From: an uncultured Methanosarcinales archaeon
GTDB taxonomy: Archaea; Nanobdellota; Nanobdellia; Woesearchaeales; CAYSVS01
Length of the DNA stretch: 64,000 nt
Direction: 5' to 3'
Assembly (NCBI GenBank): GCA_964434475.1
Contig: CAYSVS010000002.1
Span: forward strand, 7,604-71,603
Position numbers and translations under genes: made by a program
Notes under the pieces: model-generated
What the model saw: only the letters and a program-made list of their open reading frames with translations
Databases searched by the model: none
What the model was told of the DNA's origin: nothing
In this document: piece after piece, positions 47,742-64,000 of the stretch
Layout of the letters: each line of letters opens with the position of its first letter
How positions within the stretch are numbered: the first letter of the stretch is position 1

Positions 47742-50700
47742 ATGAAAAGCTGATGGAAGGACTGAGCATAATTGTTTTGCTAGTTGTCAGTTTAGTATTA
47801 GGATTAAGCGTCAATTATGAAGATAACATAACAGGATTCAGTATTGCAAACTTTGAAAACACATATATGGCGAATGATTCGATAAACATCAATACAGATT
47901 TTAAATTTAATTGCTTTGACATGAACAATACAAAGATATTGGTTGAATTCAACAACAATACAGAGATATACCATATTGAAGAGTTAGAGCACAGTGCAGT
48001 TTATGATAAAACATATGTATTGAACATAAAGGTTAAGTTGGATAATCCTGAACAGATAGGAGAGTATCTGCTAAAGATAAAAGCTACTAGCGACAATGAA
48101 ACGCACAATCTTGAAAAGAAGATACTCATAATGAATAAGACCAATCTTATAGAGATAGAAAAAGAAGCAAGCAATTCTACAGATATCGAAACTAATGAAA
48201 CAAATGTTGTAGAAATAAATGAAACAGAAAAGAAAACAGATATTGAAAATGTCATAAACGAAACACAAATATCAAATCAAACAGAAGCACATAATGATTT
48301 GGCAACAGATGATACAATGCATCAGGATAATAATGAAACAGGAAATATTACAATAAGGATTAACCAAAGCCAAACAAACACAGAAGGAAATGAGCATATG
48401 GATGATGCGTTTAATGAAACAAACATCACAAAGAATATTAAACAAACGCAAAAATATGAAACATTCACATTACAGAGCAAGGAAGGTAAAGACATAGGGG
48501 TTTTTGAGATAAGTGCAAAAGATTCGAAGTATAACTTAAAGATATATGAAGTCGCGAAAAATTCAACAATTCAAGCAGAAGCTACAATAAAGGGGATGAA
48601 AGACATACCTATAGTAAAGACGAAAATAGGCAGAATAAATGAAAAGCACATAAAAACAAAAGTGTTTGCTATAGAGCATATAAAGATACAGGAAGCTGAA
48701 ATAATTCTTCCTAAGACAGGATATGTAGATACAATCTATAGATGCAACAATTTTGATATCGATATCTTCGAATGTGAGGAGGAATGGCAAAAGACAAATA
48801 TAGAGTTCGAAGATCTTGAAAATAGAATAAAATTTACTGTTGATCATTTCAGCGCTTATGCTGGCGGAATAGGTTATGATTCAAGACTGTACATATACGA
48901 TGATACTGACTTTGAGATAAAACAGGTTGAAGAGAATATTTTGTTCTATGCCAACTATACCAACTCAAGTAACCAGACAATATTAGATTCTAATTGCACA
49001 ATAGAATTCAACATTACAGGCAACTGGGAAGGATTATCTAATATGCATTATAATGAGTCTTTGGAATTATGGTTTTTTAACAGAAGCTTTAACGCGTCAG
49101 GAGAAAATCAGTTCAATGTAAGCTGCACTTCCAGTTATGATAATTTAAGTGCGATAGATAGCATCACTATCTACAATGACCATTCAGGACCATATTGGAC
49201 AGAGAATAAGACAAACTTCGAAGGAGTTTCGACATATGAAAAAGATAAAGAGTATATGTTCAATGTTACGTGGAATGATGCAAATGATATAAATGAAGTA
49301 ATTATAGAACATGATTTCAACAGCAGCGTGCACAACTATTCTGTAAATAACATAGGAAATGAATACTATTACACATATACAGGATTAAAGACAGGAACAT
49401 ATAATTGGAAAGAGTATGCATATGACATATTAGGTAATCTTAACTCAACTGATGAATGGCAGTTTGAAATAGTAAAAGCCGAACCTGTGTTGAATTTAAC
49501 TTTGAACAGAATACAAGGAAATGTTTTGGTTAATGAAAATCAAAACTTAAACATTAATGCTTATTGTCAAGAGCCGCATAATGAATATGTGGAATTGTAT
49601 CTTAATGATAGTTTGATAAACAAAGGAACAGGAATATTAAGCAACACAACATCATTTGCAAACGCAGGATTGCATAATTCAACAATAAGGTATCTTGGCA
49701 ATGAAAATTATACTTCAGCAAATATAACATATAATATAAGTGTGAATTCTCAGCCATACATTGATCCGGCAGTACCTAATGTTTCAATATACAGAGATTA
49801 TGGAGATTATGAAATCAATCTTACACATTATGAAAATGATCTTGAAGATTCAGCAGAAAATCTCAGTTGGAGCATAGGGTACATAAACAACAGCTTATTA
49901 CAATACATATTTAATGAGGATGTATTGACGCTGACAACTGTTTCAGCAGCTCATGGAGTAGATAAGCTGGAATTAATATTGACAGACAGCAATGGATTAA
50001 ATGATACGCAGAATATAACTGTATTTATACCTTCAATAGAGCTGCATTCAGAGATAGGAGAATTGTTCATAATAGTTAATAATACGAATTCAACCAGTAT
50101 AATATTGAATGTTACTGATTATTATGCTGATGTTAATTTAACTGTAAACAACAGCAAATGCTCATTAGACAATTATAGTCTAGTAAATTTCATAGGAAAA
50201 AAAGACATAAACTTATCATGTAACTTCAACTACAGCCAAAACATAAGCGAGTATGTATTGATAGATACAAACAAAAGCAACAACCTGACAATAAAGATAA
50301 CTCCTGTTGAACCAAGGTTTAATCTTGAACAGATAAGCGGATACAATATAGTTTCAGGAGGAAGCTTTGATAATTCAATTATGTTGAATGTTTCCTATGT
50401 TTTTGCATTAGATGTAAACAATACAATAGATTGTCCAAATAATTGGGGATGTAATGTTAGTCCAGAGCATTATGCTAAACTAGAGATAGGAAATTATGGA
50501 ATCAATTATTCAATCATAGTGCCCGATGATGAATCTGCAGGAAATTATAGGATAAATTACAGCACATATGACCAATACGGAAGAAAAGAAGATAATTTAT
50601 TTTATGTCAATGTTTCGCAAACACCATTCATCTTTGTTGAAAAGAATAATTTAAGCGCTTATGTTGATATCTGCGAAGATATAGAATATAATATCTATTT

Positions 50701-53700
50701 TGAGAACAATGATCTTGTTAACCTAGACAACATAACAATAATAGATTATCTACCTAGTGATCTTGAGTTTAATTCGTGGAGTACGGAAAACAACAGAACT
50801 ATTGTCGATATGTACAATACAAACTCAAGGATAGTATGGAACAAGAGCAGCATGGAGATAGGAGAAAATATAAGCATAAGCTTGAACTTAACAGCCAACT
50901 GCAGTGCTTATGGTTATAATATCAACAAGGCAAACATAACATATTATTGGAATACTACATCAGGAGCAAGAAGGAATAAAACAACAGAAATCGAAGCACA
51001 CAGAGTTTATGTCAATAAACCAAAGATTGAGCTAGAGATTGTTCCAGATCAAACATTGAAAAATCTCAATCAAACAATAACATGGACATTGAGAATAAGA
51101 AACACAGGAAATGCAACAGCTTACAACATAAACATAAGCTATCTTACAGAGCAAGGTTTTGAATATATAAGTTTCTCGGATATGAGCAACATAAGCAACA
51201 GTAAACCAGGATATGGAGTTGACAATAATCATTCTATACTGTGGATTGCAAACATAACTAAAGGAGATGAATGGACAGCAGAAGTATATGCAAATCCTAA
51301 GTACTGCGATGAAAATTTATTGGATTCTAACTTAAGCGTAAAAGATATCTGCGGATGTGATGAGTTTGATAAACATCTTGAAAGCAATATTAGTTTAAGA
51401 AAAATAATAATTAACAAGACAACAAAGAAAACCGAGTTAGGAATTGGTGAACTTAACACATACACAATCGAAGCACTGGTTTGCGGCGAATATAAAAATT
51501 TGACAATAACAGATAGTTTTCCCAATCTTTTGAATTTTACTAAGAATGATAGTTATGTTGATGATAATGATATAAACATAACAACAATAAAAACAGACAG
51601 AAACTTCAGATGGACACTAAAAAATCACACAGGAAACATGAAGAGCCTTGAAAAATATGTTCACATTAGACTAAACATAAGCCAATACCCTAATAATCTA
51701 TCAAATGACAATGACGAGATAACCAACAATGCAACACTATTGTACTACAATTCTTCAGAGGATGAATCTGATAAATTCTATGAAACAGGAACAAGCGCAG
51801 GAGAAACAAGCATAAGCCAATCTACTATTACAGTATATGAGCCAGATGTACAAATAAGTGTTGAGACTTTGAAAGATACATGGAACATAAGCGATGAACT
51901 GCATGTGAATATTACATTAGTAAATATAGGAAACAATGATGCTTATAATCTGACTATCAACAGCTCGTATGTTGATGGTTTGGAACTGATAAATTCGAGC
52001 TATGAGATGGATTATAATGATACGGAGTTGTTTAGTTGGAAGATAGGCAAACTTGAACAAGCGCAGCAGTTCAGCATAATAGTGAATTATCTAGTCAATG
52101 AAACTTACAAAGATGCAAGAAGAGTGTTAGCTGATGATTATTTAGGAATAGATGCAGATATTGAATACTACAGTTATTACCTCGATAATGAACATAATGC
52201 TGTTCCAAGAGAATATTATGATCAAGACAATAAGCAGATAAAAATAGACAGAGCATATCTTAATTTTGATACTGACAAAATAGTTGCAGCGATAGGAGAA
52301 AAGATAACATATGACATAACAGCAGACTTCAGCAAAGTATATGCTAATGATGCACATATAATAAATAAGATTCCTTTTGGAACAGAATTTATCAGATATA
52401 CTAACTCAAGCTATATGGATCTGACTGTTGATATGAACAGATTGATATTCAATCTTACTAACATTACGGAAAGGAAAAAGATAAATCTAAGCATAGAAGT
52501 TTATGTTAATTCTTCTGCATACGACGGACAAAACTTGATAAATTATGTTAACTTAACATATCAAAACAGCACAGATGATGAGTTTGTCATTCAACATAGT
52601 TCTACTGTAACAGTAAGAGAACCATTCATAGACATAATAAAAGAATTGATGAGCAGCCAAGAAATAAAGATAGGAGATGTTGTTGAATACAATATTACAA
52701 TAATCAATAATGGACTATATGATGGATATAATGTTACTATGCAAGAGAACATATCTGACGGACTGATACTTAATTCATCTTCTCCTGCTTATGATTCTAA
52801 AAACGGAAACATATTAGTATGGCATTACAGCAAATTCCAAAAACAGACAACCAAGAACATATTGCTTAATCTTACAGTCAACAGGACATACAAAAGTGGC
52901 GAGTATGTTAGTGCAAATGATGTTTTCAATAATCATGTTGATATAAATTATTATGGCTTCAATTCAACAATAGCAGAAGAGTATAATGCAACAGTAAATG
53001 CGTATTATAATGAAACATATTCTGATAACAAGGTAGAACTGATAAAACCTCGAATATATGTATTTAGAGACAAGACAAACGCAACAATAGGAGAAAATGT
53101 CAGCTATAATATAGTATTGAATTTCACAGAAACAGCAGGCAATTATGTTGAGCTTAATAACACGCTTGATCAAGGGTTTGTGCTGATAAATGCAACGAAT
53201 AATCCTAGCTATAACGGAAGAAATCTGCTGTGGAGTTTTGGCAATATATCCTTACAAAGAATAGAGATAAACTACTCAGTATATATCAATGATACTTCTA
53301 TAAACGAAAAAGGAAGGAATGTTGAACAAAAGTTTGACTTGAAATATGAAAGCCATAATCTTACTAAACATTATCTAAACAATAAAACATACATTGAGAT
53401 AAAAGAGCCTAATGTTACAATATTTAAACAGCTTATGAGCGATCCTAATTCAGGGATAGGAGAAGTTATAGAATACAATATAACCATAGTCAATCGAGGA
53501 AATTCGGATGCGTTCAATGTTACAATAAAAGATAGGATTCCTAATGGAACATATTACAATACATCTAATCCTGGCTTTGTTAAGGAAGAAAATAAATATC
53601 TGCTTTGGAACTATTCAAGACTAGATGCAGGAGATTATAGGACAATCTTATTGAATTTCACTATAAACAACAGCTATGATGACAGAAGCATTGTCAATTC

Positions 53701-56700
53701 AGGAGACATATTCGGCAACAGCGTAAATATGACATACTATAGCTACAATTATACTCTTGCAAATCCTTACAAAGGAAAAACAAGAAAGTATTACATAGGA
53801 ACCAACAGCGATGCTTTTGTCATAATATCGCCTGAATTCGGAAAAATTACTTCGCCATTGAAGACTATTGCAGGAATAGGAGAGAATATCAACTATGTCA
53901 TAAATGTAAATTATACTGCAGGTGCTAACAATGTTACAGTCAATGACCTATTGCCCGATAATATTGTTCTTGTAAATTATAGCTTTGAAGATAATGCGAC
54001 AACAGATAACAAAACAATACAATGGAACTTTGGAAGAGTTGGAGAGATAAGGCAGGATAATATCAACATAAGAACTTATGTGAATGATTCTAGCTCAGTA
54101 TATGATGGAATAGAGATAGAAAAGAATTATGCTAACCTTACATATATAGGAGAAAACAATACAGTGTACAATCTTTCGTCTTTAAGCAATACAGTTACAG
54201 TGAGAGAACCTAATGTAAACTTGAGCATAGTGTTGATAGGAAACAAGCATCTGAAAATAAAGGATAATGTTGAGTATAAAATATCAATAGAGAATATAGG
54301 GAACTATGCTGCATATAATGTTACTTTACATGACAAGATTCCAGACGGATTATTTTACAATAGTTCAAACATAGGATATAAGGCATTTGAAGATAATATA
54401 TTAGAGTACAATTATCCAAAAATATCTGCAGGAACAGTTAAAAATATTTTGCTGAACTTAACCATAAATGGAACATATGCAGACGGAAATTTAGTGAGTT
54501 CAAACGACAGCATATATGACTCTATCAATACAACATACTATAGCTTTAACCAGACAAAAGCAAAAGAATACGGAGGCATAGTGAGAGAATATTTTAACTC
54601 AAGCTATTCTGAAAACATAAGCTTGATTGCACCTACAATAGAGAAATATGTTAATTCAAGTTTTGGTTATGAAGGAGATATTATCAAATATGTCATAGAA
54701 GTTAACGCAAGCAATGGGTTAAGAAATTTTACTGTTGAAGATAATCTGCCAGAAGGTTTGACTTATGTAAATGATACCAGGCACATTTATTCTAGTTTGG
54801 ATGGAAACAATATAACATGGGAATTTGGAGATGTTCCTAATCAGTTTACATATATCAACATCACTGTAAACATAAGCTCAAGTCCAGATCAAGGAGATGG
54901 AGTATATATAGACAATAATACTGCAACGATATATTACATGAACTCTAACAAGAAAGTATTCAGTCTAAATTCAACAAGCAGCAGGACAGAGATGAATGTG
55001 CCTCCTGAACAGATCAATCTGACATCTCCAGTAGATGAGCATAATACAACTAATAGACAGCCAAGCTTTGACTGGGGTGATTCAAATGATTTAGACATAG
55101 TAGATTCAATAAAGTACTATCTTGAAATATCAAATTCAAGCTGTTTTGAATATTTGTATGCTGATCAGAATACGACACTATCAGAATATACATTGACAGG
55201 AGTGCAGAGTTTAAGTGATGGACAATATTATTGGAGAGTCAAGATATGCGATGATTCTTTAAAGCTAAACAACTGCAGTTATTCTTATGAAAACTTCACA
55301 TTTAGAGTTGATAATGGAGCTCCTGAAATAACAATACATGAGCCTGATGAAGATGAAGTTGTAGCTTGGTTAGTTTACTTTATAGCTAACGCCACAGATA
55401 ATCTGACACATACAGATAAAGTATGGTACACAATAAGCAACAATACATTGATGCAGCAAGGTTTCCTAAACATGTCAAACAGTTGGGAAGCAGTATGGAA
55501 TACTGCAAATATTGTAAGTAATTCAACTGACATAAACCATTTCAATTTTACAGTTTATGCTAATGACACATTGGACAATACAGCAAATAAGACAATTGCA
55601 TTTGTTGTTGATAACAGAAACCCAGGATTACAAATAATATCTCCAGATAAGACCTACCATAATGCAAATATTGGTTTGGATATAAGGCTGAGCAATGAAC
55701 ATCTTAACAAAAGCTGGTTTGAGATAAATTATAGCAGCAGAGCATTGCTGATTTCAAATAATACAGAGATAGGGAAACCTAGGTTCAATTGGACACAACA
55801 AATAGATCTTAGCATAGAGGATAATTACACATTAACTGTTTATGCAGAGGATGAAGTAGGGAATAACATAACTAAGCAAACATGGTTTGTGTATGATACA
55901 AGTGCACCAAACCATCAATTATTTAGAAGTCCTATTCCTGCCTATACTACAGATAATATAACATTATCTGTAATAGTCAATGACAATTATAATATTGATA
56001 CTGTTTACATAACACATAATGCATCTGGAACATATGAAAATCATAGTGTGCAGATCAGCGGAAACAATTATTCAAGAATAATATACCATAATGAAACAAG
56101 CAACCAAGAAAACATAGGATGGTATACTTGGATAAACGACAGCGCCAAGAATGTTAACATATCAAGCATCGAGGCTATAAAAATAGAGAACAGAGTACCT
56201 GTATTCAGTCCTTTGTTAAGCAATAAGATAGCGCAGGAGGATCAAGAGTTTAGATACAATATAAATGCAACAGATTATGATTATGAAGACAGCATAAACT
56301 ATACGACCAATGCAACAGAGTTTATGATAAATAAAAATACAGGATTAATTAATTGGACTCCGACAAATGAGGATGTGGGAGTATTGGTCGTCAATGTTAC
56401 AATATGCGATAATAGCACTGCAGCTGCATATTGTAATTCAAGTGTGTTTAACATTACTGTGAATAATACCAACGATGCGCCTTATGCAGTAAGTTTGGGA
56501 CTGCCTGAAAACAATTCAATTACAAATGATCCTAATCCTTATTTCAACTGGAGCGTTGCAAATGACGTTGATGCAGGAGATAGTTTAACCTATTATTTGA
56601 TTTTAGACAATAACAGTGATTTTAGTTCTGTTGAGTTGATACAAAACACAACAAATAATTTGTATGGATTGACAAATTCACAGAACCTATCAAACGATCA

Positions 56701-59700
56701 ATGGTATTGGCGTGTAAGAACTTGTGACGACAGCTATTCTACGAATAATTGCACATATTCTGCAGAAAACTTTACTTTTACAATAGATGAAAGTACAAGC
56801 ATAGTTACACTGACTGAGCCCATAGATGGCCATAATGCCACCAAAAATAATATGACATTTATCTGCAATGTTACAGATAATTATGGACTAAAGAACATAA
56901 CTTTATTTGCAAATATCACTGGATGGAACAAGTTTGGATCAACTAATATATCTGGTAAGAAAAATTCTTCTGTATTTGTTGTTACAAACATATCAGATGG
57001 ATCATATGTATGGAACTGCCTTGCTTATGATATGGCGGGCAACTATAATTGGGCGCTGAGCAACAATACATTTAGGATAGATACTAATGCGCCTAATATA
57101 ACATACTATTATCCTTCAAATGGCGCAAGTTTAGGATATACAACAACAAAAGTTGAAGCAGAGATAAGGACTGATGAATTGTCTGTATGCTGGTATAATT
57201 TTACAAATAAAAGTTTTGTATATTCACAAGGAAATAATTTCAATGACAGCTATAGATACAATCACAGCCTAAATATTAGCATTAGCCAAGGACAAAGCTA
57301 CAGCATCTATTATCTATGCAATGATAGTTACGGCAACCTAAACAATGAGTCTTATGTGCATAGTTTCTCTGTACAGACGCAGCCAGATGATCCAAGCGGA
57401 GGAGGGGAAGAAGAACCGCCTGCTGAACCAGAATGCACAGCAAGCTGGGAGTGCACAGCTTGGAGTCCTGCAATATGTCCTCCAAGCGGAATACAGACAA
57501 GATCTTGTACATGTTCATGTCCAGGAGGAACTGGGTGTACAGGAGATTATAGTACATCAAGAACTTGCGTATACACGCCAACATGCGATGATGGAATAAA
57601 GAATCAGGATGAAACAGATGTAGATTGCGGAGGAAGCTGTCTGGGATGCAGCACAGGAAAGCAGTGCAGCCAGCAGACAGATTGTTTATCAGGGTTATGC
57701 GTAAGTAATGTATGCAGAGAAGTAGGATGCTTCAACAATATCAAAGATGGAGATGAAACAGATATAGATTGCGGTGGAAGCTGCAGTAAATGCGCGGTGA
57801 ATAAAGCATGTTCAAGCAAAAGCGACTGTTTGTCAAATTTATGTATCAATAATATATGTAAAAATCCTTCTTGCACAGACAGCTTAAAAAACCAGGATGA
57901 AACTGATATAGATTGTGGAGGAAATATTTGTTCAGGATGTGCAGTAGACAAGAACTGCAATGCTAATTCAGACTGCCAAAGCAATTATTGCATAGGAGGA
58001 AAATGCAAGATAGCTTCGTGTTCAGATGGTTTGATGAATCAGGATGAGACAGATGTAGACTGCGGAGGAAGCATATGCGGAAAGTGCAGCATAGGCAAAG
58101 AATGCCTGATAGATCCTGATTGTATCAATAACAACTGCGTTTTAGGACAATGTGTTGAAGTAAGCTGTGATGATGGAATACAAAATGGAGATGAAACAGA
58201 TGTAGATTGCGGAGGAGTATGTGGAAAGTGCAGAATAGGAAGTAGCTGTGCTTTGGATAGCGATTGCGAGAATAATAATTGCTTATCAAACGTATGTGCT
58301 GCAGAGAATTGCGATGACAATATAAAGAACGGAGATGAAACAGATGTAGATTGCGGAGGAAGCTGTCCTAGATGCGATACAGGAAAATCTTGTTCTGTTA
58401 ATTCTGATTGCTCCAGCAACAGCTGCATAGACAACATATGCGGAGCTCCAAACTGTGAAGATAATTCCAAGAATCAGGATGAGACAGATGTAGACTGTGG
58501 AGGAAGCTGCTATGCTTGCGAGGATGGCAAGCAATGTTCTGTAAATTCAGATTGTGCTAGCTTGTTCTGTAAAGAAAATGTTTGCAGACAAGCTTCATGC
58601 ACAGACACTATAATTAACCAGGACGAAACAGATGTAGATTGCGGAGGACCTTGTCAAGGTTGTACTGCAGGAAAGAATTGTATGGTTGATAGCGACTGTA
58701 TAAGCAAATATTGCGTCGCAGGAATGTGCGAAACAGCAAGCTGCACTGACGGTGTGCTCAACGGAGATGAAGAAGGCATAGACTGCGGAGGAAGCTGTCC
58801 AGCGTGTGCTAGCTGTGATGATGGGATCAAGAACGGAGATGAAAAAGGAATAGATTGCGGAGGAAGCTGCCCAGCGTGCTTCTTGGAATGTAGCGATGGA
58901 ACACAGGCAGGAAAATGCTCTGTTGAAAAGCCAAAATATTGTACATTGGATGAGGCTTTGGTGTTTGATTGCGAAAATTGCGGATGTCCTAATACAGGAG
59001 ATGTTTGTCAAGCTGATGGAAAATGCAGAGGAATAGGTAGCTGTTCAGACAGAATACAGAACCAAGGCGAAACAGGAGTGGATTGCGGCGGACCTTGTAA
59101 AGCGTGTGAAGCTACTTGTTTTGATGGATTAAAAAATCAAGGCGAAACAGGAGTAGATTGCGGAGGACCTTGCGAACCTTGCGCTAAAGAGCCTTTGCTT
59201 GAAAAACCAGGGCAATTTGAATTTGATGAAATACAAAGCTATGAATTTATGTTATATGAAAATGATATGCAAGAGTTTGAGATAGACAATATTAAACATA
59301 CAGTGCATGTATCAAAAGTTTATCTGGATAGTGCTGATCTAATAATAAGTTCTGACCCTATAAAGGTTAATGTTAAACTTGGAAAAGAAAGTTATGTAGA
59401 TATTGACGGAGATAATATTTATGATATTAGATTATTAATAAAAGATATAGCAGACAAAGGAATAAGCCTAAAGATAACTGTGCTTGAAGAAAGGATAACT
59501 GCTGCACAAAGAATAAGGCAGTTGTTGGGTCTTGAGGAGAGAGAAAGTTCCATTATACCTCAGGACATAAACATAGATAATATGCCTTGTCTCAAGGATC
59601 CTAAATCCAGCCAAAACAAGATTTCTGTTTTTGGTTCTGATTTTAAGTTTGATACACCTATAGGTTATGATGTCCTGATTGATGGTTTCAATATAATGTG

Positions 59701-62700
59701 CAATAATGGCGCAACAAATTTGACACTGACAATACCTAAGAATTACGCAGATATTTTCGCCTTGGATAAAAACGGAAATAGGATAAAATTGGCAAGCACT
59801 GGCTTGAAATGCGGAGAAGAGTTTGAGGAATTTGCAAAAGATGAAATGTTTGTAAGGGAGTATGAAGATTTTGAAGTTGCAGGAAATATTGATGAAAACA
59901 ATAAAAATATCAATCATGAATATTATGATTTTGAATTCATTACAGATGATAAATTTAAGGTTGTTTTGAAAAAACCAAAAGATCCAGTTTTAGAGCCTAA
60001 AAATAATCTTTTGAAGATAAGCGGAAAAGCCATTGCATTGCATATAGATAAAAAAATAGTATCTGGAAATCTAAAGATAGCCTTGCCTTTGGTAAAAGAT
60101 GAAAAGATAGAAGAAGGAAGCTATAATGTTTATGTTATGGTTCCTGGTCAGCAATGGAAGTTGTTGGAAAGTGATGAATATGAAAAGATAATAAGTTCTA
60201 GATTAAATAACCTTAGCAGTTACATAAACAGAAATAATGAGATTGTTTTGGCTGTAATAGGTAAGATATGCGCTAACTGTAAGTACAGCACACTAAAAAA
60301 AGCGTATGATCCTGGCAATACAAGAGATGCATTGCTGATGATACATGGATTAGGAAGCTCGCCAAAAACATTTGAGAATGTGCTTAAGGATATAAGGATG
60401 ACTAACCAGCCATGGCAGGCTTGGACTTACGGATATCCTACAGAAAAGAGCGTTAGTAAAAATGCGATTGAGCTTGCACACCATCTTGAAGCAAATGCAG
60501 ATGAATTTGATTATATGTATATTGCAGCGCACAGCATGGGCGGACTAGTAGTAAGAGAAGCGTTGTATTATAGCTATCTTGTAAATAAGGAAAAACCAGG
60601 AACATTCAAGTATTTGGATAAGATCAAGAAAGTAATACTTATTAGTGTTCCGAATAAAGGGAGCCCTGGCGCAGAGTTCTTATTAGGATTATCTCAATAC
60701 CTGACAAACGACAAATCAGACACAGCAATAGTGAATCTGGATAGCAAAGGCGTGCAAGATCTTATCAATGGTACAGAGACACCTATGGTGTCTGGAATAA
60801 AGTATTATGTTATTGCTGGAACAAAAAGCTATGAATTCGGAAAAAGCATATTAAGGGTTGAGTTGTTTGAACAAAACGTAACAAACGACGGACTTGTTTC
60901 TGTAGATAGTGCACAAAAAGTAGGGGGGGCTGTACTTGATGATGAGTGTGAAAACTATTGGGAAATATATGAGACACATACAGAAATATTAGATAATCCT
61001 ATATCACGAAGATTAGTAGAAAAGATAGTAGCTGAAGAGATAGCTAAAGGAATAAAAAACACTGCAATATTAGGAAATATAGTCTATTATGATCTGCCTA
61101 TCAAATGCGGAGAGGATTATGTTGTTCTTGGCAAGAAAGTTAATCCAAATAAACAGTATGATCCAACAGGATGCTTATGCGGAAATGGATACTGCGGCGA
61201 AGGAGAGGATAAAGAGAATTGCGCAATAGACTGCGATACTTTATTGAATAAAGAGAATATATGTAAAAGTTCGCCATTTGCAATATTATTGCTTATTGTT
61301 GTTATGCTGATAATAGGAGCCCCTTATGTTTATGAAAAATATATCAGACGCTTGAGATTTGCAACAGTTTTGAAAAACAGGATGGTATGCTGCTTTGTGT
61401 GGACAGCATATATTATTGCTGCTGTCAATCTTATGCTGTTCTTGTATTATAAGCAGTTTTGTATCAGCTATTATAGTGTGGGGCTGGGTAAGAATATGCT
61501 AATAGCTTTAGGCATGTTGATTGTTGTATTGTTAATATATGATTGGTTCATATATAAGTTTAGGAAAGAAGAGAAGAAGCTTGAGAAAGAGTTCAAGTTT
61601 ATGAGTAATATTGCAAGATTGTTTAGACTCCATGTTAAGTTGATGTTATGGATAGTTTGGATATTGATAGTTATAGGTTATGCTGCAGGAATGATGGTTG
61701 TGTTTAACATCAGTGAAGAGTTATTTGCAAATCTGTTGTTCAATGTTATATTGGTGATATTGACGTTTGTAGCTGTAAATACCTTGAACTTCTTTGTTTA
61801 CGAAGAAAGGAAGATAGTTACAGGATTGGAGAAGAAAGAGAAAGAGATAGAGAAATTGGAAAGATTTGAAGAAAAAGAGATCAAGAAAGAGAAGAAGAAG
61901 ATATGGGAATTGGAGTTTAAGGAATTGTTTAAGTCCAAAAAAGAAGTCAAGAGATTGAAATCTTTAGAAAAAGCAAGGAAAGCCAGGTTTAAAAAACTGA
62001 AGAAAAAAGAAAGGAGAGAGAAGATAAGAATATTCAAGATAAGGGTTAGGAAGGTCAAGGACAGGCTTTTGCATAAATTAGGTTTAAAATATACTATAAA
62101 GGAAAAGGAAAGGCTGTTTAAGAAAGAAAGATTAAAGAATTTAGAAAAAGCTAGAAGGGTTAAGAAAAGGAAAGCGAAAATAAAAAATATGAACAAATAC
62201 CTCAACAAACTAAAAAACAAGATTAAAAGGTATTTCAAGAAAGAATTGAAAGAGGTTAATGAAGATTACAAAGAATGGTATGAAAAAGAACTGCGTAAAA
62301 TTGAAAGAGAGAAAATCAGAAGGATGGTAAGAGCAAAGAAATGGTATAAATTCTTAAGAAAGATTGGATTGTACCATACCAAAAAAGATAAGCAGATGTT
62401 GTTAGATAAGAAGAGATTGAAAAGTTTAGAAAAAGCAAGAAGAGTTAAGAAATTTAATTCTATAATTAAAAAATTGCATAAAAGAAAGCTAAAACCTCTA
62501 GAGAAAGCAAGAAAAGCCAGGAAGAGGAAAGCAGAGCTTAATAGGATTAAAAGAAAAATCAATAAGTTGAAACAAAAAATAATCAAAAGTTTTGGAAAAA
62601 TAAAGATAAAGCCAAGCTGGAAAACAAAAGAAAGGCTGGCTAAATTAGGATTATACAGCAAAAGAAAGATTATTGAACATAATGAAAGAGTGGAAAGAGC

Positions 62701-62803
62701 AAAGATTGTGAAACTCATGAAGAAAGATAAGAAAAAAAGGAAAAGAGAAGCTGATAAAGAATATGATGATCTAAAGTATGGAGAGCAGACAGATTGGGAG
62801 TAA
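47738..62803 (+). CDS. giant (5,021 aa) multidomain cell-surface protein with embedded lipase-like hydrolase domain and C-terminal 5-TM anchor
   Basis: A single uninterrupted 15,066-nt ORF. An N-terminal hydrophobic signal or anchor (LSIIVLLVVSLVLGLSV) is followed by an Asn-rich region dense in N-x-S/T sequons. Next come DUF11-like β-sandwich repeats, FN3-like and cadherin-like domains, 8 full and about 5 half Cys-rich repeats, an α/β-hydrolase domain (IHGLGSS, AHSMGG), five C-terminal TM helices and a K/R-rich repeat tail. Confidence 0.85.
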   Translation: MNEKLMEGLSIIVLLVVSLVLGLSVNYEDNITGFSIANFENTYMANDSININTDFKFNCFDMNNTKILVEFNNNTEIYHIEELEHSAVYDKTYVLNIKVKLDNPEQIGEYLLKIKATSDNETHNLEKKILIMNKTNLIEIEKEASNSTDIETNETNVVEINETEKKTDIENVINETQISNQTEAHNDLATDDTMHQDNNETGNITIRINQSQTNTEGNEHMDDAFNETNITKNIKQTQKYETFTLQSKEGKDIGVFEISAKDSKYNLKIYEVAKNSTIQAEATIKGMKDIPIVKTKIGRINEKHIKTKVFAIEHIKIQEAEIILPKTGYVDTIYRCNNFDIDIFECEEEWQKTNIEFEDLENRIKFTVDHFSAYAGGIGYDSRLYIYDDTDFEIKQVEENILFYANYTNSSNQTILDSNCTIEFNITGNWEGLSNMHYNESLELWFFNRSFNASGENQFNVSCTSSYDNLSAIDSITIYNDHSGPYWTENKTNFEGVSTYEKDKEYMFNVTWNDANDINEVIIEHDFNSSVHNYSVNNIGNEYYYTYTGLKTGTYNWKEYAYDILGNLNSTDEWQFEIVKAEPVLNLTLNRIQGNVLVNENQNLNINAYCQEPHNEYVELYLNDSLINKGTGILSNTTSFANAGLHNSTIRYLGNENYTSANITYNISVNSQPYIDPAVPNVSIYRDYGDYEINLTHYENDLEDSAENLSWSIGYINNSLLQYIFNEDVLTLTTVSAAHGVDKLELILTDSNGLNDTQNITVFIPSIELHSEIGELFIIVNNTNSTSIILNVTDYYADVNLTVNNSKCSLDNYSLVNFIGKKDINLSCNFNYSQNISEYVLIDTNKSNNLTIKITPVEPRFNLEQISGYNIVSGGSFDNSIMLNVSYVFALDVNNTIDCPNNWGCNVSPEHYAKLEIGNYGINYSIIVPDDESAGNYRINYSTYDQYGRKEDNLFYVNVSQTPFIFVEKNNLSAYVDICEDIEYNIYFENNDLVNLDNITIIDYLPSDLEFNSWSTENNRTIVDMYNTNSRIVWNKSSMEIGENISISLNLTANCSAYGYNINKANITYYWNTTSGARRNKTTEIEAHRVYVNKPKIELEIVPDQTLKNLNQTITWTLRIRNTGNATAYNINISYLTEQGFEYISFSDMSNISNSKPGYGVDNNHSILWIANITKGDEWTAEVYANPKYCDENLLDSNLSVKDICGCDEFDKHLESNISLRKIIINKTTKKTELGIGELNTYTIEALVCGEYKNLTITDSFPNLLNFTKNDSYVDDNDINITTIKTDRNFRWTLKNHTGNMKSLEKYVHIRLNISQYPNNLSNDNDEITNNATLLYYNSSEDESDKFYETGTSAGETSISQSTITVYEPDVQISVETLKDTWNISDELHVNITLVNIGNNDAYNLTINSSYVDGLELINSSYEMDYNDTELFSWKIGKLEQAQQFSIIVNYLVNETYKDARRVLADDYLGIDADIEYYSYYLDNEHNAVPREYYDQDNKQIKIDRAYLNFDTDKIVAAIGEKITYDITADFSKVYANDAHIINKIPFGTEFIRYTNSSYMDLTVDMNRLIFNLTNITERKKINLSIEVYVNSSAYDGQNLINYVNLTYQNSTDDEFVIQHSSTVTVREPFIDIIKELMSSQEIKIGDVVEYNITIINNGLYDGYNVTMQENISDGLILNSSSPAYDSKNGNILVWHYSKFQKQTTKNILLNLTVNRTYKSGEYVSANDVFNNHVDINYYGFNSTIAEEYNATVNAYYNETYSDNKVELIKPRIYVFRDKTNATIGENVSYNIVLNFTETAGNYVELNNTLDQGFVLINATNNPSYNGRNLLWSFGNISLQRIEINYSVYINDTSINEKGRNVEQKFDLKYESHNLTKHYLNNKTYIEIKEPNVTIFKQLMSDPNSGIGEVIEYNITIVNRGNSDAFNVTIKDRIPNGTYYNTSNPGFVKEENKYLLWNYSRLDAGDYRTILLNFTINNSYDDRSIVNSGDIFGNSVNMTYYSYNYTLANPYKGKTRKYYIGTNSDAFVIISPEFGKITSPLKTIAGIGENINYVINVNYTAGANNVTVNDLLPDNIVLVNYSFEDNATTDNKTIQWNFGRVGEIRQDNINIRTYVNDSSSVYDGIEIEKNYANLTYIGENNTVYNLSSLSNTVTVREPNVNLSIVLIGNKHLKIKDNVEYKISIENIGNYAAYNVTLHDKIPDGLFYNSSNIGYKAFEDNILEYNYPKISAGTVKNILLNLTINGTYADGNLVSSNDSIYDSINTTYYSFNQTKAKEYGGIVREYFNSSYSENISLIAPTIEKYVNSSFGYEGDIIKYVIEVNASNGLRNFTVEDNLPEGLTYVNDTRHIYSSLDGNNITWEFGDVPNQFTYINITVNISSSPDQGDGVYIDNNTATIYYMNSNKKVFSLNSTSSRTEMNVPPEQINLTSPVDEHNTTNRQPSFDWGDSNDLDIVDSIKYYLEISNSSCFEYLYADQNTTLSEYTLTGVQSLSDGQYYWRVKICDDSLKLNNCSYSYENFTFRVDNGAPEITIHEPDEDEVVAWLVYFIANATDNLTHTDKVWYTISNNTLMQQGFLNMSNSWEAVWNTANIVSNSTDINHFNFTVYANDTLDNTANKTIAFVVDNRNPGLQIISPDKTYHNANIGLDIRLSNEHLNKSWFEINYSSRALLISNNTEIGKPRFNWTQQIDLSIEDNYTLTVYAEDEVGNNITKQTWFVYDTSAPNHQLFRSPIPAYTTDNITLSVIVNDNYNIDTVYITHNASGTYENHSVQISGNNYSRIIYHNETSNQENIGWYTWINDSAKNVNISSIEAIKIENRVPVFSPLLSNKIAQEDQEFRYNINATDYDYEDSINYTTNATEFMINKNTGLINWTPTNEDVGVLVVNVTICDNSTAAAYCNSSVFNITVNNTNDAPYAVSLGLPENNSITNDPNPYFNWSVANDVDAGDSLTYYLILDNNSDFSSVELIQNTTNNLYGLTNSQNLSNDQWYWRVRTCDDSYSTNNCTYSAENFTFTIDESTSIVTLTEPIDGHNATKNNMTFICNVTDNYGLKNITLFANITGWNKFGSTNISGKKNSSVFVVTNISDGSYVWNCLAYDMAGNYNWALSNNTFRIDTNAPNITYYYPSNGASLGYTTTKVEAEIRTDELSVCWYNFTNKSFVYSQGNNFNDSYRYNHSLNISISQGQSYSIYYLCNDSYGNLNNESYVHSFSVQTQPDDPSGGGEEEPPAEPECTASWECTAWSPAICPPSGIQTRSCTCSCPGGTGCTGDYSTSRTCVYTPTCDDGIKNQDETDVDCGGSCLGCSTGKQCSQQTDCLSGLCVSNVCREVGCFNNIKDGDETDIDCGGSCSKCAVNKACSSKSDCLSNLCINNICKNPSCTDSLKNQDETDIDCGGNICSGCAVDKNCNANSDCQSNYCIGGKCKIASCSDGLMNQDETDVDCGGSICGKCSIGKECLIDPDCINNNCVLGQCVEVSCDDGIQNGDETDVDCGGVCGKCRIGSSCALDSDCENNNCLSNVCAAENCDDNIKNGDETDVDCGGSCPRCDTGKSCSVNSDCSSNSCIDNICGAPNCEDNSKNQDETDVDCGGSCYACEDGKQCSVNSDCASLFCKENVCRQASCTDTIINQDETDVDCGGPCQGCTAGKNCMVDSDCISKYCVAGMCETASCTDGVLNGDEEGIDCGGSCPACASCDDGIKNGDEKGIDCGGSCPACFLECSDGTQAGKCSVEKPKYCTLDEALVFDCENCGCPNTGDVCQADGKCRGIGSCSDRIQNQGETGVDCGGPCKACEATCFDGLKNQGETGVDCGGPCEPCAKEPLLEKPGQFEFDEIQSYEFMLYENDMQEFEIDNIKHTVHVSKVYLDSADLIISSDPIKVNVKLGKESYVDIDGDNIYDIRLLIKDIADKGISLKITVLEERITAAQRIRQLLGLEERESSIIPQDINIDNMPCLKDPKSSQNKISVFGSDFKFDTPIGYDVLIDGFNIMCNNGATNLTLTIPKNYADIFALDKNGNRIKLASTGLKCGEEFEEFAKDEMFVREYEDFEVAGNIDENNKNINHEYYDFEFITDDKFKVVLKKPKDPVLEPKNNLLKISGKAIALHIDKKIVSGNLKIALPLVKDEKIEEGSYNVYVMVPGQQWKLLESDEYEKIISSRLNNLSSYINRNNEIVLAVIGKICANCKYSTLKKAYDPGNTRDALLMIHGLGSSPKTFENVLKDIRMTNQPWQAWTYGYPTEKSVSKNAIELAHHLEANADEFDYMYIAAHSMGGLVVREALYYSYLVNKEKPGTFKYLDKIKKVILISVPNKGSPGAEFLLGLSQYLTNDKSDTAIVNLDSKGVQDLINGTETPMVSGIKYYVIAGTKSYEFGKSILRVELFEQNVTNDGLVSVDSAQKVGGAVLDDECENYWEIYETHTEILDNPISRRLVEKIVAEEIAKGIKNTAILGNIVYYDLPIKCGEDYVVLGKKVNPNKQYDPTGCLCGNGYCGEGEDKENCAIDCDTLLNKENICKSSPFAILLLIVVMLIIGAPYVYEKYIRRLRFATVLKNRMVCCFVWTAYIIAAVNLMLFLYYKQFCISYYSVGLGKNMLIALGMLIVVLLIYDWFIYKFRKEEKKLEKEFKFMSNIARLFRLHVKLMLWIVWILIVIGYAAGMMVVFNISEELFANLLFNVILVILTFVAVNTLNFFVYEERKIVTGLEKKEKEIEKLERFEEKEIKKEKKKIWELEFKELFKSKKEVKRLKSLEKARKARFKKLKKKERREKIRIFKIRVRKVKDRLLHKLGLKYTIKEKERLFKKERLKNLEKARRVKKRKAKIKNMNKYLNKLKNKIKRYFKKELKEVNEDYKEWYEKELRKIEREKIRRMVRAKKWYKFLRKIGLYHTKKDKQMLLDKKRLKSLEKARRVKKFNSIIKKLHKRKLKPLEKARKARKRKAELNRIKRKINKLKQKIIKSFGKIKIKPSWKTKERLAKLGLYSKRKIIEHNERVERAKIVKLMKKDKKKRKREADKEYDDLKYGEQTDWE
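57580..59200 (+). repeat. in-frame tandem array of ~48-aa (144-nt) cysteine-rich repeats within the giant gene
   Basis: The repeat consensus is C-x-D-x-I/L-K-N-G/Q-D-E-T-D-V/I-D-C-G-G-S-C-x-x-C-x-x-G-K-x-C-x-x-x-S-D-C-x-S-N-x-C-x-x-x-x-C, with 8 Cys per full unit. There are eight full units and about five 24-aa half units. The periodicity is visible at the DNA level. Confidence 0.85.
60300..61000 (+). other. lipase-class α/β-hydrolase domain inside the giant protein (aa ~4190-4420)
   Basis: It has an oxyanion-hole HG box (LLMIHGLGSS) and a nucleophile elbow AHSMGG (GxSxG). A downstream candidate catalytic Asp (TNDGLVSVDS) and His (YETHTEIL) follow. The order and spacing resemble Bacillus LipA-type (Lipase_2/PGAP1-like) enzymes. 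Confidence 0.75.
61250..62803 (+). other. C-terminal 5-TM membrane anchor and cytoplasmic K/R/E-rich repeat tail of the giant protein
   Basis: Five hydrophobic helices are present: FAILLLIVVMLIIGAPYVY, MVCCFVWTAYIIAAVNLMLFLYY, MLIALGMLIVVLLIYDWFIY, LMLWIVWILIVIGYAAGMMVVF and LLFNVILVILTFVAVNTLNFFVY. A roughly 330-aa tail follows, with reiterated KLGL-Y…RLK-S/N-LEKARRVKK units. Confidence 0.7.
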
Positions 62804-62857
62804 AAGAAAATATTTATATAATAAATAATTTATTAATAATGAATAAAGGGGTTAACT

Positions 62858-64000
62858 GTGAAAAAATTGGTGAGTTTAGGGATTGCATTATTGTTTCTGT
62901 GTAGTTTAGCTTACGCAGATGAAGTATGGCATAGTTCTCAATATATAAGATTAAATGGAGATCCTTCTCATAACTTATCTACTTGGAGAGATTCAGGAGA
63001 TTATACTAAGATAAATGCAGCTTATCTGTGGAGTTTGGGAAATGTTCCATCAGGAGCAGGAACATTGCCAGCAGTAAATATTCCTAATCTAGATGCTGAT
63101 AAAATAACTACAGGATCAATAGATAATTCTGTATTCAGCGCATATTCAGATTTAACTGCAGAAGGATATCTTGATAATGATGCTAATGGTGATCTGCTTA
63201 CAAGAACACAATCAGATTCTAGATTCGTAAATGAAGGGCAAGCAGATTCGATAACTTCTGGAATGGTTAATTTCAATTACGCTGCTTCAGGTTCAGAAGG
63301 AGGGGCTGCTACAGGATTAGCTTGCTCAGGAACTTGTGTATCTTCAGGAGAGGTTGATTTTAATTATGCAGCTGGCGCAACCAAAGGCGGCGCTGCTACT
63401 TCGGGCGATTCGGCAACAGCATTCTTTTCAACCGGAACATTAGAGGATGAGAGGATAGCATCAACGATCGCAAGAGATTCTGAAGTCACAGCAGCAATCG
63501 CAACTAAAGATGAGTGCTCAGAAATAAGTGGATGCGTTGTTGGCGCGATAACTGACGATACATCAGTTCCAAAAAATCATATGGCAAATTCAGGAACATT
63601 AGGATTTGATTGGGCTGATAGTGAGGTTGTTAATGATTTGACAATTACAAGTTCAGGCAGTGTTGATGCTGGTGCGATTAAGTCTGGCACTGTGGCTGAT
63701 GCGAGGATAGCATCAACGATTGCAAGAGATTCTGAAGTCACAGCAGCAATCGCAACTAAAGACCAATGTTCAGAAATAAGCGGATGCGTTGTTGGCGCGA
63801 TAACAGATGATACATCAGTTCCAAAAAATCATATGACAAATTCAGGAACATTAGGATTTGATTGGGCTGATAGTGAGGTTGCTGATGCTTTGACAATTAC
63901 AAGTTCAGGCAGTGTTGATGCTGGTGCGATTAAGTCTGGCACTATGGCTGATGATAGATTATCTTTTACTTTACAAGATGCTGTAAATGATGGCGGTTGT
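62858..64000 (+). CDS. secreted repeat protein (GTG start; 3' partial, continues beyond window)
   Basis: The frame opens after a TGA at 62840. GTG at 62858 is preceded by an AAAGGGG Shine-Dalgarno sequence 6 nt upstream. A signal peptide is present (VKKLVSLGIALLFLCSLAYA). The product is Gly/Ser/Ala/Thr-rich and contains near-identical 84-aa (252-nt) tandem repeats. It is absent from the ORF track because it lacks an ATG start. Confidence 0.6.
   Translation, partial: MKKLVSLGIALLFLCSLAYADEVWHSSQYIRLNGDPSHNLSTWRDSGDYTKINAAYLWSLGNVPSGAGTLPAVNIPNLDADKITTGSIDNSVFSAYSDLTAEGYLDNDANGDLLTRTQSDSRFVNEGQADSITSGMVNFNYAASGSEGGAATGLACSGTCVSSGEVDFNYAAGATKGGAATSGDSATAFFSTGTLEDERIASTIARDSEVTAAIATKDECSEISGCVVGAITDDTSVPKNHMANSGTLGFDWADSEVVNDLTITSSGSVDAGAIKSGTVADARIASTIARDSEVTAAIATKDQCSEISGCVVGAITDDTSVPKNHMTNSGTLGFDWADSEVADALTITSSGSVDAGAIKSGTMADDRLSFTLQDAVNDGGC
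63452..64000 (+). repeat. 252-nt near-identical tandem repeat (>=2.2 copies, runs off window)
   Basis: The unit starting at 63452 (gaggatagcatcaacgatcgcaagagattctgaagtcac…) recurs at 63704 with only a handful of substitutions. The encoded unit is ARIASTIARDSEVTAAIATKD(E/Q)CSEISGCVVGAITDDTSVPKNHM.NSGTLGFDWADSEV…SGSVDAGAIKSGT.AD. Confidence 0.85.

What the first reader, a model, noticed from the sequence alone, without database searches (positions are those of the whole stretch)
62858..64000. GTG-initiated secreted protein with near-identical 252-nt tandem repeats immediately downstream of the giant gene (not in ORF track)
An open frame runs from 62858 to the window end, which is exactly 381 codons. 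It has a signal peptide, an AAAGGGG ribosome-binding site and no ATG, so it is missing from the supplied ORF list. Its 84-aa unit is repeated with more than 95% nucleotide identity: copy 1 at 63452, copy 2 at 63704, and an earlier degenerate copy around 63250-63440 (GMVNFNYAASGSEGGAATGLACSGTCVSSGEVDFNYAAGATKGG). The unit reads ARIASTIARDSEVTAAIATKD(E/Q)CSEISGCVVGAITDDTSVPKNHM.NSGTLGFDWADSEV… Repeats this close are recombination-prone and may vary in copy number, as in phase- or size-variable surface fibres. The Gly/Ser/Ala/Thr-rich β-strand-like composition resembles fibre or tail-fibre proteins. Together with the giant gene it may form a surface-structure locus.
Basis: seen in the sequence. 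Interest (0 to 1): 0.55.

Follow-up and report, generated by a model that had tools for sequence, protein, structure and literature searches.

The report
Secreted tail-fibre-like protein of an archaeon
The open frame is the first 381 codons of a real 591-residue exported fibre protein in a small-genome archaeon; it is assembled from short modules also found in bacterial surface fibres and virus tail fibres, and its 252-base repeat is an old in-frame duplication of one shaft unit, not a variable switch.

Summary
The observation largely holds. An open frame runs from the GTG at 62858 to the window end. It has a signal-peptide-like N-terminus and an exact-period 252-nt tandem duplication at 63446-63949. 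Identity is 94.4%, not above 95%. The claimed third degenerate copy is a separate 2 x 29-aa repeat.

The full protein is in public data (P0001, 591 aa), so no stop or frameshift lies just beyond the window.

It is a mosaic of short modules joined at a recurring connector, [ST]G[ST]-x-x-D-x-R-[IL]. At least 472 protein clusters share modules with it. Annotated relatives are mostly phage tail fibres or fibres ending in the Peptidase_S74 chaperone domain. Two sub-modules of the 84-aa unit occur in structural genes of uncultured tailed viruses.

The protein itself matches no curated family or solved structure, and its last ~130 aa have no relative anywhere. Upstream genes are archaeal housekeeping genes plus a giant membrane-anchored surface protein.

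Best reading: a Sec-exported, tail-fibre-like surface fibre with an orphan binding tip. A sister allele swaps everything after residue 233. Phase or size variation is not supported: there are only two copies, dS is 0.13 and dN/dS is 0.29. Both structure predictions failed, and function remains inferred.

The parts
62813..62821 (+). TTTATATAA, a candidate archaeal TATA box in the 54-nt gap after the giant gene. It would place a transcription start about 12-15 nt before the GTG.
   Evidence: Read from the sequence. This is inference only. The sigma-70 scan is not informative for an archaeon.
62846..62852 (+). AAAGGGG, a Shine-Dalgarno-like site 5 nt upstream of the GTG
   Evidence: Comparable G-rich motifs precede 20 of 53 long ORFs in the window.
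62858..64000 (+). Partial coding sequence: aa 1-381 of a 591-aa protein (P0001). The gene would end about 633 nt beyond the window.
   Evidence: tblastn 99.7-100% over 381 aa.
62858..62920 (+). Sec-type signal peptide, aa 1-21, with a predicted AYA|DE cleavage site
   Evidence: Sequence, hydrophobicity and a confident AlphaFold helix. Not run through SignalP.
62921..63091 (+). N-terminal region, aa 22-78. It is rare: shared only with P0002, P0183 and a few others.
   Evidence: Coverage map.
63092..63250 (+). Module M2, aa 79-131: DKITTGSIDNSVFSAYSDLTAEGYLD..LLTRTQSDSRFVNEGQ. This is the most widely shared module.
   Evidence: About 85 of 191 relatives cover it. Alignment A3 has 73% mean column identity. 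No solved-structure relative. Only 1 weak IMG/VR locus.
63251..63445 (+). Module M3, aa 132-196: 2 x 29-aa repeat (SG-x-V-x-FNYAA..GGAAT) plus GDSATAFFSTGTLE.
   Evidence: Self-comparison. Shared with P0003 and P0066.
63446..63697 (+). 84-aa unit, copy 1 (aa 197-280). It is a composite of three sub-modules: (a) DERIASTIARDSEVTAAIATKD, (b) ECSEISGCVVGAIT, (c) DDTSVPKNHMANSGTLGFDWADSEV..LTITSSGSVDAGAIKSGTVA.
   Evidence: Each sub-module occurs separately in other proteins.
63698..63949 (+). 84-aa unit, copy 2 (aa 281-364). It differs from copy 1 at 14 of 252 nt: 7 synonymous and 7 non-synonymous steps, giving 6 amino-acid differences.
63950..64000 (+). Start of module M5 (DDRLSFTLQDAVNDGGC...). 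It continues beyond the window into M5, M6 (ETDPQV..NGKWCRGTGSQVTCDQDAP) and the orphan tip (aa 459-591).
47738..62803 (+). Neighbouring giant gene (5021 aa). It has an N-terminal signal anchor, DUF11 x 9, Ig-like domains, Cys-rich repeats, a C-terminal multi-TM block and a basic tail of about 340 aa. Context only; a link to the fibre gene is not shown.

Best explanation
The ORF encodes the N-terminal two-thirds of a 591-aa extracellular fibre protein of a low-GC, probably DPANN (Woesearchaeota-like) archaeon. The mature protein is about 59 kDa with pI about 4.1.

Shown:
- It has a Sec-type signal peptide and no membrane anchor.
- It is a chain of short sequence modules whose borders carry the connector [ST]G[ST]-x-x-D-x-R-[IL], at aa 85, 192, 276 and 360.
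- The 252-nt tandem repeat is an in-frame duplication of one composite 84-aa unit bounded by two such connectors.
- A comparison with P0003 suggests the duplicated block sits between two segments that are contiguous in P0003.
- Both copies are under purifying selection.
- The modules belong to a pool shared across bacteria, archaea and viruses, including bona fide tail-fibre genes.
- The last ~130 aa are unique.
- A 96%-identical allele replaces everything after residue 233.

Inferred:
- The protein forms an elongated, probably trimeric shaft like phage tail fibres, with a distal binding domain.
- It acts as an adhesin or recognition fibre on the cell surface. For an episymbiotic archaeon this would plausibly be recognition of the host cell.
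- Recombination at the conserved connectors lengthens the shaft and exchanges tips.
For: Gene and export:
- Gene reality and start.
- Signal peptide.

The repeat:
- Repeat and its selection.
- Internal architecture and connectors.
- P0003 has GDSATAFFSTGTIEDARLSFTLQDAV contiguous, so the 2 x 84-aa block looks like an insertion at the connector.

The module network:
- 472 clusters at E<=1e-3, all module-level matches.
- Relatives carry Peptidase_S74 (x3 of 90), with single hits to Gp34_trimer, PTR and Gp58, plus many PHROG tail-fibre families.

Viral occurrences:
- The sub-module SGTVADARIASTIARDSEV is in 38 IMG/VR contigs.
- In L020 and L026 the carrier ORFs hit PHROG tail-fibre and minor-tail families. 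The L020 ORF lies a few genes downstream of a major head protein gene. The L026 ORF repeats the same connector many times.
- The SGTLGFDWADSEV sub-module is in a 1154-aa ORF between head-closure and neck genes.

Tip and allele:
- The tip has no relative in 1.84e9 or 5.8e9 proteins.
- Allele swap after residue 233.

Cellular rather than viral context:
- Hef, primase, SecY, PheRS and TldD lie upstream.
- GC3 is 20.5%, even lower than in the giant gene and SecY (~30%) and with no sign of import from a GC-richer genome; the higher overall GC comes from amino-acid composition.
- Relative P0007 lies between Cdc6 and SerRS.
- About 70% of full-length relatives have N-terminal hydrophobic segments.
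Against: - P0001 itself matches no Pfam, NCBIfam or PHROG model and no PDB sequence. Profiles of its modules find no solved structure.
- It has no match in 50,697 cultured phage genomes and no close relative in IMG/VR.
- The most conserved module, M2, is almost absent from viral contigs.
- The link to tail fibres is therefore partly transitive.
- Both AlphaFold runs were low confidence (pLDDT 47.6 and 56.2). The fibrous or trimeric fold is not shown.
- Nothing tests binding or surface location.
- Downstream genes are unseen.
- The organism assignment rests on archaeal marker genes and on relatives in Woesearchaeota assemblies, not on a phylogeny.
Confidence: 0.6

Rival explanations
1. It is a virion or mobile-element protein: a tail fibre or receptor-binding protein of an integrated archaeal virus or element that begins at or beyond the window end.
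For: - Sub-modules occur in viral structural genes.
- Relatives P0022, P0047 and P0045 lie on ~23-27-kb contigs next to Laminin_G_3 proteins; the P0022 and P0047 contigs also carry integrase and resolvase genes.
- The gene is the last one visible, so its downstream neighbours are unknown.
Against: - It has a Sec signal peptide.
- All upstream neighbours are housekeeping genes or a cell-surface protein.
- No other gene in the window resembles those elements.
- GC3 is as AT-biased as the host genes, or more.
- Relative P0007 lies in a housekeeping context.
- No integrase or att-like repeat was seen near the gene.
Confidence: 0.15
2. It is a size- or phase-variable surface protein whose repeat number changes frequently by slippage or unequal recombination.
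For: The tandem 252-nt copies share identical runs of 55, 45 and 41 nt, which is enough for occasional homologous recombination.
Against: - There are only two copies, and a 252-nt unit cannot shift the frame.
- 5.6% divergence with dS 0.127 means the copies have not been homogenised for a long time. dN/dS of 0.29 shows both are maintained.
- There is no simple-sequence tract in or before the gene.
- The only close allele differs by module replacement.
Confidence: 0.08
3. It is a structural envelope protein (S-layer-associated or matrix protein) or a secreted enzyme or toxin carrier, not an adhesin.
For: - It is exported, acidic and rich in Ser, Thr, Gly and Ala.
- It lies next to a giant envelope protein.
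- Some module-sharing relatives carry enzymatic beta-helix or pectinesterase-like ends.
Against: - No S-layer, enzymatic or toxin domain was found.
- It has only one N-x-S/T sequon, unusual for an archaeal envelope protein.
- It has no anchor.
- The variable orphan tip and swapped allele fit a recognition role better.
Confidence: 0.12
4. The duplication is an assembly artefact.
For: Repeats longer than the read length can be mis-assembled, and the sequence comes from a metagenome.
Against: - The copies differ at 14 positions spread over the unit.
- They stay in frame with conservative changes.
- The same sequence is in the public protein record.
- Collapse would remove a copy, not create diverged ones.
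Confidence: 0.03

Closest known systems
Tail fibres and minor tail proteins of tailed viruses that carry the K-I-T-S-G-T-x-x-x-x-R-I-P type connector repeat. Examples: IMG/VR ORFs L026:4951-6192 and L020:5656-7113, matching PHROG 7565, 38058, 892 and 21412.
   Same: - Same connector motif at module borders.
- The identical 15-20-aa sub-module SGTVADARIASTIARDSEV.
- Modular shaft with a variable C-terminal end and mosaic evolution.
   Different: - The window protein has a signal peptide.
- It lies among chromosomal housekeeping genes of an archaeon.
- It matches no tail-fibre profile itself.
- It lacks the LDGxH..Y and NGGTG motifs that drive the PHROG hits of its relatives.
Secreted bacterial 'tail fiber domain-containing' proteins ending in the Peptidase_S74 intramolecular chaperone (for example P0005, P0006, P0014)
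   Same: - Signal peptide.
- The M2 module at 60-70% identity.
- The LTISSSGSVDGGAIKSGTVADARIASTI segment.
- Clustering with other large surface proteins.
   Different: There is no Peptidase_S74 domain. The tip is an orphan ~130-aa domain. The host is in a different domain of life.
Archaeal-type fibre proteins on ~23-27-kb contigs, some carrying integrase genes (P0022, P0047, P0045)
   Same: - Signal peptide.
- The ITDDTSVPKNHL-NSGTLGF-W sub-module at about 65% identity.
- Paired with a very large surface-type protein.
   Different: - Those genes are followed by Laminin_G_3 proteins, and the P0022 and P0047 contigs carry integrase and resolvase genes.
- No other gene is shared with the window.
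- GC is 36-56% against 34% here.
R-type pyocin or tailocin fibre 'knob' proteins (P0049, named 'pyocin knob domain-containing' by NCBI)
   Same: Shares the SGTVADARI(D/A)S.IARDSEV sub-module.
   Different: There is no knob-domain similarity. The match covers only about 30 residues, repeated.

Membership tests
Phage tail fibre (curated PHROG / Pfam tail-fibre families) | Significant match of the protein itself to a tail-fibre profile | tested here: not met
   No Pfam, PHROG or NCBIfam hit for P0001 or for the 381-aa fragment. No tblastn hit in 50,697 phage genomes.
Phage tail fibre (curated PHROG / Pfam tail-fibre families) | Gene lies in a virion structural module | tested here: not met
   Upstream genes are a giant cell-surface protein, an HTH protein, TldD/PmbA and an aminoacyl-tRNA synthetase. 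Downstream is outside the window and could not be retrieved.
Phage tail fibre (curated PHROG / Pfam tail-fibre families) | Shares sequence modules with proteins that are demonstrably tail fibres | tested here: met
   The SGTVADARIASTIARDSEV sub-module is in 38 IMG/VR contigs. Carrier ORFs in L020 and L026 hit PHROG tail-fibre and minor-tail families; the L020 ORF lies a few genes downstream of a major head protein gene. The second sub-module is in L050, between neck genes.
Phage tail fibre (curated PHROG / Pfam tail-fibre families) | Elongated trimeric fold | not testable with these tools
   Only monomer AlphaFold2 was available, and both models were low confidence.
Peptidase_S74-terminated fibres and spikes | C-terminal intramolecular chaperone domain (PF13884) | tested here: not met
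   Absent from P0001 and present in relatives P0005, P0006 and P0014.
Sec-exported protein | N-terminal n-h-c signal peptide with a small-x-small cleavage site | tested here: met
   MKK + 16 hydrophobic residues + AYA|DE. Kyte-Doolittle maximum 2.8. Heuristic only, no SignalP run.
Repeat-number (size/phase) variable surface protein | Array of several near-identical units or a simple-sequence tract | tested here: not met
   Two copies, 94.4% identical, dS 0.127. There are no short tandem repeats within the coding sequence; one weak AT-rich 15-nt repeat lies in the upstream gap at 62808-62839.
Repeat-number (size/phase) variable surface protein | Copy-number differences between alleles or reads | tested here: inconclusive
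   The only close allele, P0002, diverges inside the first unit by replacement. No reads or other alleles were found.
Target of a diversity-generating retroelement | Repeat pair differing at adenines of one copy | tested here: not met
   The 14 mismatches involve all bases in both directions. Both copies are in frame inside the gene.
Archaeal S-layer protein | Match to S-layer families, many N-glycosylation sequons, and an anchor | tested here: not met
   No family hit. One sequon. No C-terminal transmembrane or sorting signal in P0001.

The most novel reading that the evidence does not exclude
A DPANN-type archaeon uses a virus-style, cassette-swappable receptor-binding fibre to recognise the cells it lives on. 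The fibre is exported by Sec, is built from a module pool shared with viruses and bacteria, and is tipped by a strain-specific orphan domain. The tip exchange between P0001 and P0002 would then mark a change of partner specificity.
Probability: 0.25. Interest if true: 0.7.

Novelty: new variant of a known kind. Interest (0 to 1): 0.4.

Why it matters
How DPANN archaea recognise and attach to their hosts is still described as unknown (abstract of PMC11329633). A chromosomal, exported, tail-fibre-like protein with an exchangeable and unique tip is a concrete, testable candidate for that role.

The case also shows that a large pool of fibre modules has no curated model and no solved structure. 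At least 472 protein clusters share these modules, and about 70% of full-length relatives have signal-peptide-like N-termini. The modules circulate between bacteria, archaea and viruses.

If the protein is just one more uncharacterised surface protein, the practical value is smaller. The GTG start, the repeat structure and the full length are now settled, and the variability idea can be dropped unless reads say otherwise.

Tried and rejected
Searches and predictions that led nowhere:
- AlphaFold2 on full-length P0001 with a 52-sequence alignment gave pLDDT 47.6. On module M2 with 37 sequences it gave 56.2. Both were too poor for fold search, so none was run.
- PDB sequence and profile searches with P0001, M2, M6 and the two sub-modules found nothing credible.
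- tblastn of P0001 against cultured phages found no match.
- Phage hits of relatives P0006 and P0029 fall on other modules than those shared with the target.
- No close relatives were found in IMG/VR or JGI metagenomes.
- Retrieving the rest of the source contig, or the P0002 contig, failed because they are not on record. Only short Logan contigs of SRR7048224 carry neighbouring genes.
- A search for homologues of the tip found only the M6 module.

Hypotheses rejected:
- The diversity-generating retroelement idea for the repeat pair was rejected from the mismatch spectrum.
- Conserved synteny of giant gene plus fibre gene could not be tested. The search with the giant protein returned only repeat-level matches.

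Other:
- No Rfam families or tRNAs are in the window.
- Literature searches found no description of such proteins in DPANN.

Full report
**1. The observation**

The frame from 62858 to 64000 is open for 381 codons. The nearest upstream in-frame stop is at 62840. The first possible start after it is the GTG at 62858, and the other in-frame candidates after it (up to 63100, as far as scanned) are TTG or GTG, with no ATG. AAAGGGG lies 5 nt upstream. Other genes of the window carry GGAGG, AGGTG or GAGGT at similar spacing.

The N-terminus MKKLVSLGIALLFLCSLAYA|DE has the n-h-c layout of a Sec signal peptide. AlphaFold models it as a confident helix.

Tandem Repeats Finder reports 63446-63954 with period 252, 2.0 copies, 94% matches and no indels. 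This is the only large tandem repeat in the 64 kb. The two copies differ at 14 of 252 positions, which is 94.4% identity and slightly below the 'more than 95%' claimed.

The 'earlier degenerate copy' is not a copy of this unit. Self-comparison shows a separate 2 x 29-aa repeat (SG-x-V-x-FNYAA..GGAAT) at aa 132-189. Only the ~15 residues before copy 1 weakly resemble the tail of the unit.

**2. The full gene**

A public protein, P0001 (591 aa, from a 72,335-bp NCBI contig), is identical over the 381 residues and uses the same start. There are exactly two copies of the unit.

**3. The organism and context**

The window encodes Hef, the archaeal primase large subunit, SecY with a Sec61-type plug, both PheRS subunits and TldD/PmbA. 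GC is about 33%. Relatives of the fibre and of the giant protein occur in Woesearchaeota assemblies. I therefore treat the source as a DPANN-like archaeon. This is an inference, not a phylogeny.

The gene follows, after 54 nt, a 5021-aa gene. That product has an N-terminal signal anchor, nine DUF11 repeats, Ig-like domains, a C-terminal multi-TM block and a basic tail of about 340 aa.

The fibre ORF has 40% GC but only 20.5% GC3, against about 30% in the giant gene and SecY. Its composition reflects its Gly/Ala/Ser/Thr-rich protein, not foreign origin.

**4. Anatomy**

P0001 consists of these parts:

| Residues | Part |
|---|---|
| 1-21 | Signal peptide |
| 22-78 | Rare N-terminal region |
| 79-131 | M2 |
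| 132-196 | M3 (2 x 29 aa) |
| 197-364 | M4 (2 x 84 aa) |
| 365-425 | M5 |
| 426-458 | M6 |
| 459-591 | Tip |

- **Connector.** A connector, [ST]G[ST]-x-x-D-x-R-[IL], occurs at aa 85, 192, 276 and 360. It marks the start of M2 and the three borders of the duplicated unit.
- **Insertion.** In P0003 the segments that flank the duplication in P0001 are contiguous (GDSATAFFSTGTIEDARLSFTLQDAV). The 2 x 84-aa block therefore looks like an insertion at a connector.
- **Composite unit.** The 84-aa unit is itself composite. Its three parts occur separately in other proteins.
- **Cysteines.** Most modules from M3 onward carry a closely spaced cysteine pair.
- **Selection.** Between the copies, dS is 0.127, dN is 0.037 and dN/dS is 0.29. 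The longest identical runs are 55, 45 and 41 nt. This is an old duplication with both copies maintained.

**5. Relatives**

An exhaustive HMMER search of 1.84 billion representatives finds 472 clusters at E<=1e-3, but every match is module-level. Coverage peaks on M2 (about 85 of 191 proteins). It is zero for aa 511 onward and under 3 of 191 proteins beyond aa 480. A dedicated search with the C-terminal 165 aa again finds only M6. The tip is therefore an orphan.

P0001 matches no Pfam, NCBIfam or PHROG model and no PDB sequence.

Among 90 relatives, few carry any Pfam domain. The most frequent is Peptidase_S74 (x3), followed by Shufflon_N and Gly_rich_2 (x2 each), with single hits to Gp34_trimer, PTR, Gp58 and a baseplate hub domain. 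The PHROG hits are largely tail-fibre families. Those hits fall on other modules than the ones shared with P0001, so this link is transitive.

Direct links also exist:
- The sub-module SGTVADARIASTIARDSEV is found in 38 IMG/VR contigs.
- In L020 the carrier ORF lies a few genes downstream of a major head protein gene and hits a tail-fibre PHROG.
- In L026 the carrier ORF hits many tail and minor-tail PHROGs. It is a long array of K-I-T-S-G-T-x-x-x-x-R-I-P connectors ending in the shared sub-module.
- The sub-module SGTLGFDWADSEV occurs in a 1154-aa ORF between head-closure and neck genes.
- By contrast, M2 is almost absent from viral contigs.

About 70% of full-length relatives begin with a hydrophobic, signal-peptide-like segment. 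Relative P0007 sits between Cdc6 and SerRS in a Woesearchaeota-like contig. P0005 lies in a bacterial cluster of large secreted proteins. The pool is therefore used by both cells and viruses.

**6. Allelic mosaicism**

P0002 is 96% identical over residues 1-233 and has no differences at all between residues 28 and 194. It is then unrelated from residue 234 on. The break falls at the border between sub-modules b and c of the first unit. The new part uses yet other pool modules. This is the pattern of tip and shaft exchange known from receptor-binding proteins. It is the only population-level evidence available.

**7. Interpretation**

The best-supported reading is a Sec-exported, tail-fibre-like modular fibre with an orphan distal domain. 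The 252-nt repeat is a shaft-lengthening duplication generated at connector sequences.

A binding or recognition role is inferred from architecture, tip uniqueness and allele swapping. It fits an episymbiotic lifestyle, for which host recognition is still described as unknown (PMC11329633).

Rivals:
- **Virion or mobile-element protein.** Possible because the downstream flank is unseen. It is disfavoured by the signal peptide, the upstream context and the codon bias.
- **Size or phase variation.** Not supported.
- **Structural or enzymatic envelope protein.** No positive evidence.
- **Assembly artefact.** Very unlikely.

**8. Limits**

- Both structure predictions were unusable, so the fibrous or trimeric fold is not shown.
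- The rest of the contig and the reads could not be obtained.
- The pairing with the giant gene rests on adjacency alone.

**9. Verdict**

This is a real gene with a real repeat. The protein class is ordinary in architecture but lies outside all curated families, and it is unusual in being a chromosomal, exported version in a DPANN-like archaeon. Interest is moderate.

Noticed in passing
window 57515-59197 (giant protein aa 3260-3820): There is a tandem array of ~47-aa cysteine-rich repeats (C-x-D-G-x-x-N-x-D-E-T-D-V-D-C-G-G-x-C...). It gives 35-48% identity to more than 2000 proteins from Myxococcota, Woesearchaeota, Bradymonadia, bdelloid rotifers and green algae, and most of those hits have no Pfam model. 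The window's own giant protein is not in the 5.8-billion-protein collection.
   Followed up: partly
window 61300-62803: The giant protein ends with several transmembrane helices followed by a Lys/Arg/Glu-rich tail of about 340 aa. This is an unusually long, basic, presumably cytoplasmic extension for a surface protein.
   Followed up: no
window 47241-47741: A 166-aa HTH / sigma-70 region-4-like protein overlaps the start of the giant gene by 4 nt, suggesting translational coupling of a regulator with the giant surface gene.
   Followed up: no
L004-L007 and L048: Contigs of about 23-27 kb hold dozens of tiny ORFs, a 900-1200-aa ORF and a conserved pair of a fibre-like protein followed by a Laminin_G_3 protein of 825-1074 aa. 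L004-L007 also carry a resolvase, and L005 and L006 a tyrosine integrase. Ten ORFs of L005 gave no meaningful PHROG hit (one weak unknown-function match). These may be unknown integrative elements or viruses.
   Followed up: partly
L020:5656-7113: An IMG/VR ORF that hits a PHROG tail-fibre family and lies a few genes downstream of a major head protein gene starts with a signal-peptide-like hydrophobic segment (MLQRPRVNPKPFLIISIVLLSMLLISSVYC...). That is odd for a virion tail fibre.
   Followed up: no
P0001 vs P0002 (window 62858-63556): Residues 28-194 are 100% identical. Five differences fall in the first 27 residues and five in residues 195-224, before total divergence at 234. This is fine-scale mosaicism suggesting recent exchange of the central shaft segment.
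   Followed up: partly
L001 3187-4804 vs L002 8802-10064: The Woesearchaeota homologue in L001 is split into three overlapping ORFs, where the syntenic L002 has one 420-aa ORF (P0007). This is either a pseudogene or assembly frameshifts. L002 is labelled Methanosarcinales but is syntenic with the Woesearchaeota contig.
   Followed up: no
P0001 aa 156-484 (window 63323 onward): Cysteines come in closely spaced pairs, roughly one pair per module from M3 onward (C156/C160, C220/C226, C304/C310, C381/C384, C410/C413, C442/C451). They may be disulfide staples or metal sites of the shaft.
   Followed up: no
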